64,000 nt of DNA from Candidatus Marinacidobacterium sp. (GTDB lineage Bacteria; Acidobacteriota; Vicinamibacteria; Marinacidobacterales; Marinacidobacteraceae), in NCBI GenBank assembly GCA_965220965.1, contig OZ244852.1, positions 824,621-888,620 on the forward strand, given 5' to 3'. A program made the translations under genes and the position numbers. A model generated the notes under the pieces. That model searched no databases. It was not told the origin of the DNA and saw only the letters and a list, made by a program, of their open reading frames with translations. Positions 49,601 through 52,841 of the stretch are shown piece by piece; the first letter of the stretch is position 1; each line of letters starts with the position of its first letter.

Positions 49601-50161
49601 CTCGCCGAACGCAAGGAGCCGGGACGCGAGAGCCGGGAGGGGCAGGAGGGCTCGTCCGGGCAGCAGGGTGAGGCGCAATCCGGAGAGGGCCAATCTGGCG
49701 AGGGGCAGTTCGGGGAAGGACAGGCCGGCGAGGGGCAGCCCGGGGAAGCGGCCTCCCGGCAGGCCGATGGGCGCGGTGGAGGCGGCGGCCCCGGCGGATC
49801 CCGCAACGAAGTCCGCCAGCTCCGGAGCGAACTGGACCGCCGGGTCCGCGACGCCGAGGCGCTCCGGCGCGAGATGACCGGCATCGGCGCCTCCGGGGAG
49901 TTCGGCGCCGAGCGGCTGGATCAGGTCGCCGCCGCGCTCAGGGGACTGAACCCGGAGCGGCTCATCGGCGACCCCCGGGGCATGGAGATCCTCGAGGCCG
50001 AAGTCCTCGACACCCTGCGCGAGCTCGAGTTCGACCTGAGGCGGGCGCTCACCGGCGGCGAGGTCGCCGATGTCCTCACCGGGGACGCCGGCCGCGCCCC
50101 CGAGGCCTACCGCGAGATGGTCGAGGAGTACTTCCGCAACCTGAGCCGCAACCCGGGGTAG
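46616..50161 (+). CDS. Very large membrane-anchored coiled-coil protein (DUF4175-like) with low-complexity Gly and GEGQx repeats
   Basis: 1181 aa. Two N-terminal TM helices after RRVRSRWRTRRLLLGGAALAVAG, then VALYVEEHDPTLREAVISGVEL (as in DUF4175 proteins of MoxR/Bat clusters). Long Arg/Glu-rich helical C-half. The family name is from memory only. Confidence 0.6.
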   Translation: METLGLDPTPRSPFEPTPGERYEELIRVIRRVRSRWRTRRLLLGGAALAVAGVVLVGGSSAILEAARYAPWAVRGLAALTWTLLAIAVWRFVARPLRSRVSDRRVALYVEEHDPTLREAVISGVELGKELDHKGGARPGFSPELTRLVVEEAIRRCEEMDAGRNIETGGLRRAAGALATAVGVAFVASILAPSDLWRGVSLLVAPWGDIDDRNPYRVLVEPGDAAIARGSDMWISATLEGFDTERVDLHLQAADGEGWEVLGMTPDPEAGGFRHLLLGVPEATDYFVDADGVRSPTFRIEVEDAPYVARIGVRYEYPAHTGLTPREVEEGGDLVAVGGTRVTLHVESTIPASSGVLRLDPGEEELPLVPVAPDEEAAPAGSRPAMTAELVLRESGAYRISLAGPDGALRTASRDYRIEVLEDLPPIVRFLRPGRDLTSSPVEEVFTEVAAEDDFALDRVEIRLSVNGGEESGFVLASGGARSEVQSGHTIFLEEHDLVPGDLVSYYALARDGAGAESSTDMYFVAVRPFDRTYRQADAMPGGGGGAGGGEGLDGTLTLRQRQIVVATFKVLRDRERMTDAAVSETVATLGLAQGRLREQVGTLNRRLQNRGIGLSPEFGEIVQHLDAGLIEMTAAEESLVGGDPEAALPREQKALTHLQRADAVFRDVQVAFNQGGGGGGGGGAPPQAEDLADLFELEMDKLRNQYETVEQSQRASSDNEVDEILERLAELARRQEQENERLRRGMQAPPGAGGGNGQDQLAAETEDMARRLERLARERSRPDLAAVSRRLREAASEMRAANSRNPGEGLESGMSAASSLRGARRDLDRGRRDRLARDVESAEEEAKRLRSAQDRIRSAVQDLEGERTRQAVDAISEQKEELVERVQDLERRLDEVSRDWSGDEPEAARAVGAAADGIRDRKLKEKIHYSRGVAAQRSTDYADQFEEMIGRDLEALEEDLASARRAVEGSDRAEQDSVLERAESLVRGLEAMRNRLAERKEPGRESREGQEGSSGQQGEAQSGEGQSGEGQFGEGQAGEGQPGEAASRQADGRGGGGGPGGSRNEVRQLRSELDRRVRDAEALRREMTGIGASGEFGAERLDQVAAALRGLNPERLIGDPRGMEILEAEVLDTLRELEFDLRRALTGGEVADVLTGDAGRAPEAYREMVEEYFRNLSRNPG
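49667..49741 (+). repeat. In-frame 15-nt tandem repeat encoding (G-E-G/A-Q-x)x5
   Basis: ggtgaggcgcaatcc ggagagggccaatct ggcgaggggcagttc ggggaaggacaggcc ggcgaggggcagccc = GEAQS GEGQS GEGQF GEGQA GEGQP inside the DUF4175-like CDS. Confidence 0.8.
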
Positions 50162-50440
50162 CCGGCCTGCCCGCGGTTACAGTGCGAGTGCGGAACAAGA
50201 CGGCGACATCGAGCGGCGAGGCGGCGGGAGTCCCACAGAGCCTCCCTTGGTGACGGGTTGGAGGGCGGAGCGCGACGCCATCCAGTCGAACCAGGCTCAG
50301 CTTGCGGTGACTCGGCTCCGTTGTGAGCGACCATCGGACCTCCAGACACTGCGACGGCGTTCCTTTTGTGGTCGTGGGATGCGGGCCGCCTTGGGACACG
50401 ATCTTGACCTCGATGAGTCAGACGAAATGAACTCTCAGCC

Positions 50441-52132
50441 GTGATTCGCGGAGTGTGGAGCGACTTCGGTCGGTGGAAGGATGGTTGGGATGAAATCCAG
50501 ACAGTGGGCGGCGGTGGACAGGGGAACGGTTACCGTGCGCGTCGCCAGTCAGATGGCCGGGAGGCCTTCGTCAAGGTGATCAAGTCCAAGCGCGACGCCG
50601 AGCGTCGGAGACGCTTCTTTCGCGAGGCGACAGCCTATGACACGGTTCGCAGCAGTGGCGTTCCGCGACTGATCGAGAGCAACGCCCATCTCCACGAAGC
50701 CGCAGAGATCGAGCCGTATATCGCGACAGAGTTCATCGAGGGGCCAACGTTGAGAATCTGGCGGGACGGACGGCATGAGGTTGAACTCGCCACCGCCCTA
50801 AGATTGGTCCGGTCTCTCCTCGCGGCGATCGGCGACTGTCACCACGGCGGTGTCGTTCACCGCGACATCAAGCCAGACAACATCATCCTGAGAGGTGGGA
50901 ATCCGTCCCAGCCTGTGCTTCTGGATTTTGGCCTGAGCTTCAAGGTGACGCAGACCAGTGAGGCCGTGACCGAAGACGGGCAGGAAATCGGCAATCGTTT
51001 TCTGCGCTTGCATGAGCTCTCCGCCGGTAGTCAACTTAAGCAGGATCCCCGGTCGGACTTGTCGTTTGCTGGTGGAATCCTGTTCTACTCCCTGACGGGC
51101 AGGAATCCCGACATCCCAGAGGATGCGGAGGGTCGTCTCCCTCACCAACGGAGGGATGTGCGTTCGCAGCTTCGACACATCGCCGGTGAGCGGTTGGAGC
51201 GGTTGCTGTCCATATTCGACAGCGCCTTCGCACCAAGAATCCACGACCGGTTCGTGAACGTCGAGGCAATGGTTGCAAGTCTGGAGAACCTCACGGAATC
51301 GCGGCGTGTTGTGGTGGGCACGTTGGATCATGATCGAGACGCCATCCGTGAGGCGTTGAACACTGCGTCGGCACAGCGGTCATCAGAGAGTCTTGACAGA
51401 CTCACGCACGCTCTCGAAGAGCTGCATCGAGTTGACGATGAAGCAGCGACGTGGTTGGACTGTCCTCTAACTCTGACACGAGGCGGACGGCACGTAGATG
51501 CCGACTTGGGAAGAAACACTGTGTCCTGGCGTAAGCGAGGAATGACCGACGATGTGTTACGAGTACAGCAGGAGGTCCGGGAGGTAGGCGGTGAACTCGT
51601 CATCAAGCTGTCGGGCGAAGCGGTCTGGCGGACGGCGGTGAACGCACCGACGTATGGAGAGTGCTTTGCCGAGAGAATTCGGAGATGGCTGGTCGGGAGA
51701 CTCCGCGAGGCTATCGCGAATCCGGAGGCGCTGCCGCCCGAGGCCAGCTATTTCCAGGAAGAGCCGCCGCTCGGGTCGCTAACGGAAGCGCAGGAGCGAG
51801 CGCGCCGAGAGGACCGCCACGTTCTGGCGTTCGTGTATGACCCGGCGCAGAAGGAGCGCGGCGAACGCGGCAAATTGGAGTGGTGTCTGAGCAACTTCCT
51901 TGAGAACCGCAGGACGCGCGAAACGCTCCGCGCAGCGTTTGTTCTAGCGCTCGTGCCACTGTCTCAAGTAAGTGCGGTCACAGACGAGCTCAGTGGCGAG
52001 TCGATGGAGACTTCACGCTGGGTCGTCTTTGATGCGGACCTCGCACCCAAGCGGCACGAAGTCATCTATGCGAACCCGCAGATGGCGGAGAGTCTCGCCG
52101 GTGAGCTGTCCGACGAGTTCGGTCGCCGATAG
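50441..52132 (+). CDS. Ser/Thr protein kinase domain fused to an uncharacterised ~290-aa C-terminal region
   Basis: GTG start. G-loop GGGGQGNGY, EAFVKVIK (VAIK-like Lys), HRDIKPDNIIL (catalytic loop), DFGLSF (DFG). The C-terminal half has no motif I recognise. The gene is visibly lower in GC than its flanks. Confidence 0.8.
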   Translation: MIRGVWSDFGRWKDGWDEIQTVGGGGQGNGYRARRQSDGREAFVKVIKSKRDAERRRRFFREATAYDTVRSSGVPRLIESNAHLHEAAEIEPYIATEFIEGPTLRIWRDGRHEVELATALRLVRSLLAAIGDCHHGGVVHRDIKPDNIILRGGNPSQPVLLDFGLSFKVTQTSEAVTEDGQEIGNRFLRLHELSAGSQLKQDPRSDLSFAGGILFYSLTGRNPDIPEDAEGRLPHQRRDVRSQLRHIAGERLERLLSIFDSAFAPRIHDRFVNVEAMVASLENLTESRRVVVGTLDHDRDAIREALNTASAQRSSESLDRLTHALEELHRVDDEAATWLDCPLTLTRGGRHVDADLGRNTVSWRKRGMTDDVLRVQQEVREVGGELVIKLSGEAVWRTAVNAPTYGECFAERIRRWLVGRLREAIANPEALPPEASYFQEEPPLGSLTEAQERARREDRHVLAFVYDPAQKERGERGKLEWCLSNFLENRRTRETLRAAFVLALVPLSQVSAVTDELSGESMETSRWVVFDADLAPKRHEVIYANPQMAESLAGELSDEFGRR

Positions 52133-52349
52133 GTCGGTACCAACGGGCCTGGTCCGGCGTCTGCTCGCGATGCCGTCCGCTGCTGTTGGGGTACAGGCCT
52201 CGCTCGAACGATCCCCGACGCCGGGCGGCCCGTGCGATGCGGGGGCTCCATCTCCGTCCGACGCGCAGGCGCAAAGCGCCGCGGATGAGGCACCCGGTCA
52301 CGGGATGTCCCAGACTCGCCTCGGCGGGCTGGCGGCGTCCCGGCCCCCG

Positions 52350-52841
52350 TCAGGACGACGTGTGGTCGTGGGCGATCCGGAGGCCCTCGGGGGTCTTCTC
52401 GAAGAGGAGCGTGAAGAGGCCGGTCGGGGCGTCGGCCTCGCGCTCCAGGTTGTAGCGCCCGAACACGAACACGAACTCCGGCGACAGCACCCGGATGTCG
52501 AGGTCGGAGAAGTGGAGCTGGCCCATGGCGGCCCGGTCGGGGTAGTTGGTCTGGTAGCGCTCGAGCAGATCCGCGGTTCCCATCCGCACCGTGTTGCCCG
52601 AGACGAACCGCATCCGGGGTGAGTCGAGGTAGTCGCTGACGAAGGTCGGCAGGTCCCCCTCGTTCCAGGCCCGGGTCTGGCGTTCGAGCACCTCGCGGAC
52701 TTCGGCGGCGAGGGCGTCGCGCTCCTCGGTCGTGAGCGCGACCCGGGTCGGGGCGGCGGAGGTGGTCTCCGGCGGGGCCGCGCCCGGCCCGGCGCAGGCC
52801 AGCGAGAGCAGCAGGAGCGAGGCGGGAAGAACGTGTCGCAT
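52350..52841 (-). CDS. SnoaL-like / DUF4440 (NTF2-fold) lipoprotein
   Basis: Lipobox LLLLSLACAG. ERQTRAWNEGDLPTFVSDY ... typical NTF2-like pattern. 163 aa. Confidence 0.65.
   Translation of the reverse strand: MRHVLPASLLLLSLACAGPGAAPPETTSAAPTRVALTTEERDALAAEVREVLERQTRAWNEGDLPTFVSDYLDSPRMRFVSGNTVRMGTADLLERYQTNYPDRAAMGQLHFSDLDIRVLSPEFVFVFGRYNLEREADAPTGLFTLLFEKTPEGLRIAHDHTSS

What the first reader, a model, noticed from the sequence alone, without database searches (positions are those of the whole stretch)
50441..52132. Lone low-GC Ser/Thr kinase fused to an unrecognised ~290-aa C-terminal region, inserted between two conserved high-GC blocks
The N-terminal ~270 aa carry all core Hanks-kinase motifs (GGGGQGNGY, FVKVIK, HRDIKPDNIIL, DFGLSF). 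The remainder (from about RVVVGTLDHDRDAIREAL to the end) matches nothing I recognise. The last ~100 aa (HVLAFVYDPAQKERGERGKLEWCLSNFLENRRTRETLRAAFVLALVPL...) have a thioredoxin-fold-like strand/helix pattern without a CxxC. There is no TM segment, PASTA, FHA or TPR. A spot count gives about 58% GC, and the 280-bp upstream spacer is also atypical. Standalone kinases in variable loci have precedent as abortive-infection effectors (for example staphylococcal Stk2), so a defence or stress-sensor role is conceivable. A candidate promoter, TTGACC (50404-50409), 18 nt, TGAACT (50428-50433), would place the transcription start almost on the GTG, giving a leaderless mRNA. That is weakly supported.
Basis: partly seen in the sequence, partly recalled or inferred. 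Interest (0 to 1): 0.6.

Follow-up and report, generated by a model that had tools for sequence, protein, structure and literature searches.

The report
Horizontally acquired PD-T4-6-type defence kinase
A single foreign gene inserted into an acidobacterial chromosome encodes a relative of the E. coli anti-phage kinase PD-T4-6 that carries an extra cysteine-free thioredoxin-like tail, so it is a new member of a known but mechanistically unexplored phage-defence family, not a new kind of system.

Summary
ORF 50441-52132 (+, 563 aa) is intact. Its GC is 0.61 and GC3 0.69, against GC3 0.81-0.96 in neighbouring genes. It lies in a ~2.15-kb segment absent from the same DUF4175|DUF4440-HflKC junction in ~25 related Vicinamibacteria/Marinacidobacterium genomes.

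The protein is already catalogued. It matches PADLOC model PD-T4-6 PDLC04063 end to end (E=7e-196). It aligns at 35% identity (E=3e-75) over the whole length of a 436-aa E. coli P2-prophage kinase that has the size, species and hotspot of the validated PD-T4-6 founder.

Anatomy:
- an active-looking Hanks kinase (residues 1-285; all catalytic residues invariant);
- an alpha/beta middle domain shared with the founder (295-426);

That last module also occurs fused to non-kinase N-termini. Homologues sit in prophages, ICEs, integrase islands and next to RM/Abi/ABC-3C genes, with no conserved partner.

Most likely it is a single-gene, abortive-infection-type defence kinase whose C-terminal modules sense or gate; that step is inferred. 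The proposed promoter is not supported. Verdict: new member of a known kind; modest interest.

The parts
50175..52330 (.). Foreign (horizontally acquired) segment of ~2.15 kb, carrying one gene
   Evidence: blastn to 8 relatives: homology ends at window 50138-50174 and resumes at 52330-52360. GC falls to 0.58-0.64 against 0.70-0.77 in the flanks. No convincing flanking repeats; the best is a 12-nt exact direct repeat at 50367/52361, about chance level. No tRNA in the window.
50441..52132 (+). PD-T4-6-family Ser/Thr kinase gene, long form (563 aa, GTG start)
   Evidence: ORF. PADLOC PDLC04063 E=7.4e-196, residues 4-560 against profile 6-558 of 564. 35% identity and E=3e-75 to the 436-aa E. coli P2-prophage kinase over its whole length. 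GC3 0.69. The N-terminus agrees with homologues, with conserved W6.
50441..51295 (+). Hanks-type protein kinase domain (residues 1-285)
   Evidence: Pfam Pkinase 71.7 bits against a cut-off of 31.7. Invariant in 113 relatives: K45, E62, H140-R141-D142, K144, N147, D162-F163-G164. Foldseek TM 0.7-0.78 (target-normalised) to M. tuberculosis PknB. Best PDB sequence matches are S. aureus and M. tuberculosis PknB and StkP. Activation segment 166-183 has low confidence.
51323..51718 (+). Middle alpha/beta domain (residues 295-426): two helices, a five-stranded antiparallel sheet, one helix. Shared with short-form PD-T4-6 proteins, including the E. coli one.
   Evidence: AF2 models with pLDDT ~90+. 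hhalign of the family profile against E. coli residues 282-436: probability 95.7%, E=9e-9. PADLOC PDLC04046 hits this part alone, E=1e-13. No Pfam or PDB sequence match. Fold class not assigned.
51779..52120 (+). C-terminal thioredoxin-fold module without redox cysteines (residues 447-560). Absent from short forms.
51854..51871 (+). 9-bp tandem duplication (GAGCGCGGC/GAACGCGGC) that adds ERG (residues 472-474) in the loop where a thioredoxin would carry CxxC
   Evidence: DNA and translation. This insertion is present in 1 of 113 aligned family members.
50404..50433 (+).
   Evidence: The hexamers are at the stated positions. They are not called by the sigma-70 consensus scan. No Shine-Dalgarno-like purine run in the ~15 nt before the GTG.

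Best explanation
The gene is a horizontally acquired, single-gene anti-phage system of the PD-T4-6 family, in a 'long form'.

Shown:
- It is a foreign insertion at a variable junction of an otherwise conserved acidobacterial locus.
- It encodes a Hanks Ser/Thr kinase with every catalytic residue intact.
- The kinase plus the following alpha/beta middle domain are homologous end to end to the 436-aa E. coli P2-prophage kinase, which has the size and location of the experimentally validated PD-T4-6.
- It carries an additional cysteine-free thioredoxin-fold module.
- Family members occur as lone cargo genes in prophages, ICEs, integrase islands and defence neighbourhoods.

Inferred:
- In uninfected cells the kinase is held inactive, probably by its own C-terminal modules.
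- A phage-derived cue (a protein, or a change in the cell) is recognised by the middle and/or Trx-like module and releases the kinase.
- The kinase then phosphorylates host and/or phage proteins on Ser/Thr, stopping phage development at the cost of growth of the infected cell. This is abortive-infection-like, by analogy with staphylococcal Stk2.
- The Trx-like module would act as a redox-inactive protein- or ligand-binding adaptor, as in PDI b/b' domains, AGR proteins or UAS domains, and would change trigger range or regulation compared with short forms.
For: Family:
- PADLOC PD-T4-6 PDLC04063, E=7.4e-196, full length.
- BLASTP to the E. coli 436-aa ORF: 35% identity over 442 columns, E=3e-75, our residues 1-426 against its 5-436.
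- Non-kinase part confirmed by hhalign, probability 95.7%.
- The E. coli ORF is 1311 nt / 436 aa, equal to the founder CDS length in Vassallo Table S2. It is present in 5 of 5426 E. coli genomes. It sits in the P2 fun hotspot. PD-T4-6 is listed as validated against T4 (PMC9519451 Table S1).

Active enzyme: invariant K45, E62, HRD D142, N147 and DFG D162; kinase fold.

Foreign origin:
- GC3 0.69 against 0.81-0.96.
- Absent from ~25 syntenic relatives; sharp homology borders.
- The same junction is empty, holds an M28 peptidase, or holds other cargo in relatives.

Mobility and defence association of homologues:
- integrase/relaxase/AlpA element;
- IS/RT/methylase region;
- ICE with TrwC;
- P4-like integrase island with AbiEi, Mrr and RES;
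- ABC-3C components;
- Type ISP RM plus Fic;
- P2-like prophage late operon;
- conjugative plasmid, short form.
No conserved neighbour appears across these loci. The kinase gene has lower GC than its surroundings in 6 of 8 loci.

Modular tail: Trx fold. The module is found on non-kinase proteins. Long and short forms are interleaved in similarity. A DruE-like helicase, also compositionally foreign, lies 6 kb away.
Against: - There is no functional evidence for this protein or for any long form. The validated protein is a short form, only 35% identical, from a distant host.
- The identity of the E. coli ORF with RRM76169.1 is inferred from species, exact length, domain layout and hotspot. It was not checked by accession.
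- PADLOC's PD-T4-6 label is promiscuous: it also tags housekeeping PASTA kinases and appears in 97 of 100 P. aeruginosa strains. The label alone means little; the argument rests on full-length homology and context.
- The papers read here state neither a mechanism nor an Abi phenotype for PD-T4-6 in their text.
- No promoter, Shine-Dalgarno sequence or terminator was detected, so expression in this host is unproven.
- The conserved P191 of the LPELSAGS motif is H here.
- In two homologues the gene overlaps a neighbouring ORF by 4 nt, so some family members may work with partners.
Confidence: 0.7

Rival explanations
1. Silent passenger. The gene is a remnant of a decayed mobile element or prophage cargo that landed at a permissive intergenic junction. 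It is not expressed, or not functional, in this acidobacterium, so it has the family's ancestry but no current role.
For: - No integrase, tRNA, repeats or other MGE genes remain around it.
- No recognisable promoter, SD or terminator.
- The codon composition is far from the host's and not ameliorated.
- It has private changes: P191H in a nearly invariant motif, and a 9-bp duplication in the Trx-like loop.
Against: - The 563-codon ORF is fully intact, with every invariant family residue apart from P191.
- An unselected gene of this length would be expected to accumulate stops or frameshifts.
- Lone insertion between housekeeping genes is also seen for an intact homologue in Ferrovibrio.
- Many Acidobacteriota genes lack canonical sigma-70 or SD signals (own knowledge), so their absence is weak evidence.
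Confidence: 0.13
2. Host signalling kinase. [quoted passage not shown] The Trx-like domain would act as a sensor of redox state or of a client protein.
For: - Hanks kinases are common regulators in Acidobacteria and other soil and marine bacteria (own knowledge).
- The gene follows the MoxR-DUF58-BatA-DUF4175 operon on the same strand.
- Its closest solved relatives are the regulatory kinases PknB, Stk1 and StkP.
Against: - It is absent from the same locus in ~25 relatives that keep both flanking operons.
- Composition is strongly foreign.
- There is no TM, PASTA, FHA or other usual sensor domain.
- NCBIfam PknB_PASTA scores 94 bits against a cut-off of 450.
- The Trx-like module has no redox cysteines in any relative.
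- The family is rare (192 representatives among 1.84 billion), patchy across phyla, and carried on MGEs.
Confidence: 0.1
3. Element-selfish or inter-bacterial conflict toxin. The kinase is a toxic effector whose main role is addiction or stabilisation of the mobile element that carries it, or superinfection exclusion for the benefit of a prophage, and not protection of the host.
For: - Family members sit inside prophage late operons and ICEs.
- Neighbours include toxin-type genes: SymE, RES, Fic.
- Vassallo et al. note that such cargo probably protects the element itself.
Against: - No cognate antitoxin-like small ORF is conserved next to the gene across the loci examined.
- In this window the gene is detached from any element, so there is nothing to stabilise.
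- Superinfection exclusion by a prophage is operationally the same as anti-phage defence, so this rival largely overlaps the main explanation.
Confidence: 0.07

Closest known systems
PD-T4-6 (Vassallo et al. 2022, E. coli UMB0949, RRM76169.1, 436 aa; single-gene Ser/Thr kinase defence selected against T4)
   Same: - Single-gene architecture.
- Hanks kinase at residues ~10-285.
- Family-specific motifs: KS..D.ERR.R..REA, LIESN, GNRFLRL.EL, DPRSD, PHQR.
- A homologous alpha/beta middle domain. The alignment runs end to end, 35% identity, E=3e-75, to the founder-sized E. coli P2-hotspot ORF.
- The same PADLOC model group.
- Carried as mobile cargo.
   Different: - Ours is 127 aa longer and adds a cysteine-free thioredoxin-fold module (447-560) that the E. 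coli protein lacks.
- Identity is only 35%.
- The host is an acidobacterium, and the gene is no longer inside a recognisable prophage.
- No functional test exists for any long form.
Stk2 of Staphylococcus epidermidis (Depardieu et al. 2016; abortive-infection Ser/Thr kinase activated by phage protein PacK)
   Same: It is a standalone Hanks kinase encoded in the accessory genome that is thought to kill or arrest the infected cell by phosphorylating many proteins. It serves as the working model for how this protein may act.
   Different: - No similarity was detected beyond the generic kinase domain. Stk2 models are not among the best 25 PADLOC hits.
- The accessory regions differ.
- The trigger and substrates here are unknown.
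PASTA kinases PknB / Stk1 / PrkC / StkP (housekeeping cell-wall signalling)
   Same: They are the closest solved kinase-domain structures and sequences.
   Different: Ours has no TM segment and no PASTA repeats. NCBIfam PknB_PASTA_kin scores 94 bits against a cut-off of 450. Ours is not conserved among relatives.
Redox-inactive thioredoxin-fold adaptor domains (PDI/ERp57 b and b' domains, AGR2/AGR3, UAS domains of UBXD7/FAF1, Thioredoxin_7/DsbH-like domains)
   Different: - No sequence-level match for our protein. The only one is a sub-threshold Thioredoxin_7 hit in a relative.
- The module is cytoplasmic and fused to a kinase.
- Its conserved motifs (YDP.Q, RG, SME..RW) are family-specific.
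Other kinase-containing defence systems (MADS MAD6, BREX PglW, Pseudomonas KKP PfkA/PfkB)
   Same: They use a Hanks kinase in phage defence. There are weak kinase-domain matches.
   Different: Those are multi-gene systems. The scores are far below the family cut-offs: MAD6 69.5 against 460, PglW 40.8 against 990. No such partner genes lie nearby.

Membership tests
Hanks-type (eukaryotic-like) Ser/Thr protein kinase superfamily | Significant match to the protein kinase domain model | tested here: met
   Pfam PF00069, 71.7 bits against a gathering score of 31.7, residues 18-223.
Hanks-type (eukaryotic-like) Ser/Thr protein kinase superfamily | Complete catalytic apparatus: Gly-rich loop, beta3 Lys, alphaC Glu, HRD Asp, catalytic-loop Lys/Asn, DFG Asp | tested here: met
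   GGGGQG; K45; E62; H140-R141-D142-x-K144-x-x-N147; D162-F163-G164. All are invariant in 113 aligned relatives.
Hanks-type (eukaryotic-like) Ser/Thr protein kinase superfamily | Bilobal kinase fold | tested here: met
   AF2 model aligned to PknB structures by Foldseek, target-normalised TM 0.7-0.78.
Hanks-type (eukaryotic-like) Ser/Thr protein kinase superfamily | Phosphotransfer activity | not testable with these tools
   Needs biochemistry.
PD-T4-6 anti-phage system | Full-length match to a PD-T4-6 profile, not the kinase domain alone | tested here: met
   PDLC04063, E=7.4e-196, residues 4-560 against 6-558 of 564. The non-kinase part alone still hits it: 3e-60 to PDLC04063 and 1e-13 to PDLC04046.
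PD-T4-6 anti-phage system | Homology to the experimentally validated E. coli protein beyond the kinase domain | tested here: met
   Against the 436-aa E. coli ORF in the P2 fun hotspot: 35% identity, E=3e-75, covering its residues 5-436. For its residues 282-436, hhalign probability is 95.7%, E=9e-9. Caveat: identity of this ORF with RRM76169.1 is inferred from species, exact length (1311 nt) and location. The accession itself could not be fetched.
PD-T4-6 anti-phage system | Single-gene system (no obligatory partner) | tested here: met
   No gene family recurs next to the kinase in 10 neighbourhoods. In the window it is the only gene in the inserted segment. Two loci show a 4-nt overlap with a neighbouring ORF.
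PD-T4-6 anti-phage system | Accessory, mobile distribution (prophage, MGE or defence-island cargo) | tested here: met
   Absent from ~25 syntenic relatives. Homologues are found in P2-like prophages, an ICE, integrase islands, a conjugative plasmid, and beside RM/Abi/ABC-3C genes.
PD-T4-6 anti-phage system | Protection against phage that depends on kinase activity | not testable with these tools
   Needs a phage challenge of a strain expressing the gene and catalytic mutants.
Stk2-type abortive-infection kinase | Sequence relationship to Stk2 beyond the generic kinase domain | tested here: inconclusive
   No Stk2 model is among the 25 best of 35 PADLOC hits. The remaining 10 hits were not displayed.
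PASTA-domain housekeeping kinases (PknB/Stk1) | TM segment plus extracellular PASTA repeats; NCBIfam equivalog score | tested here: not met
   NF033483 scores 94.1 bits against a cut-off of 450. No PASTA hit in Pfam. No TM segment.
Thioredoxin superfamily (fold) | beta-alpha-beta-alpha-beta-beta-alpha thioredoxin fold | tested here: met
Thioredoxin superfamily (redox-active members) | CxxC (or CxxS) active-site motif at the N-terminus of helix 1 | tested here: not met
   0 of 113 relatives have CxxC in this domain. The position is occupied by the conserved Y-D-P-x-Q.
MADS MAD6 / BREX PglW kinases | Score above the NCBIfam equivalog cut-off, and presence of system partners | tested here: not met
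   MAD6 scores 69.5 against 460 and PglW 40.8 against 990. No methyltransferase, BREX or MADS genes were found in the annotated 38-64 kb part of the window.

The most novel reading that the evidence does not exclude
The cysteine-free thioredoxin-fold module (residues 447-560) is a portable infection-sensing or gating domain. It has been attached repeatedly to different effectors, namely PD-T4-6 kinases, DUF4062-containing proteins, HEPN/DUF4145-like proteins and several unannotated N-terminal domains. It recognises a phage protein or an infection-induced ligand. Long-form PD-T4-6 would then be a two-sensor kinase whose trigger range differs from that of the validated short form. This would define a previously undescribed sensor-domain class in bacterial immunity.
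Probability: 0.3. Interest if true: 0.55.

Novelty: new member of a known kind. Interest (0 to 1): 0.3.

Why it matters
PD-T4-6 is one of the few single-protein kinase defences, and no mechanism has been published for it in the papers I could read.

- This locus extends the family to Acidobacteriota. That phylum has almost no experimentally studied immunity.
- It is a very clean example of a one-gene defence insertion at a defined chromosomal junction.
- The analysis gives the family a domain map: a kinase, a family-specific alpha/beta domain, and an optional redox-dead thioredoxin-like module that is also found on non-kinase proteins. That map suggests concrete truncation and domain-swap experiments to find the trigger-sensing part.
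- It is also a reminder that 'PD-T4-6' calls by PADLOC need full-length support, because the same label is given to housekeeping kinases.

None of this changes current concepts. It is incremental.

Tried and rejected
- Flanking repeats or att sites for the insertion: only short repeats at about chance level, the best being a 12-nt exact repeat at 50367/52361. No tRNA in the window.
- Remnant of the M28 peptidase gene that occupies this junction in many relatives: none in the window.
- Plasmid and phage GenBank collections: no full-length relative of the long form. There were only kinase-domain hits plus one 444-aa short form on an Oscillatoria plasmid.
- The exact protein is not in the public gene-position index.
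- Sequence searches of the non-kinase region against Pfam and PDB: nothing significant.
- afdb50 fold library: unavailable.
- Founder accession RRM76169: not in any paper text. Cluster look-ups of ten short forms gave no E. coli names. A homology search from the Burkholderia short form also listed none. The link finally came from a prophage contig whose gene is 99.8% identical to E. coli genomes.
- Neighbourhoods of non-kinase proteins carrying the Trx-like module: the contigs were too short to be informative.
- The window-edge ORF beside the DruE-like helicase: no PADLOC match.
- Sigma-70 promoter and terminator scan around the gene: no promoter; one terminator-like site inside the ORF, within chance expectation.
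- Considered and rejected: PASTA kinase, MAD6, PglW, lanthionine synthetase kinase domains. All are far below the NCBIfam cut-offs.
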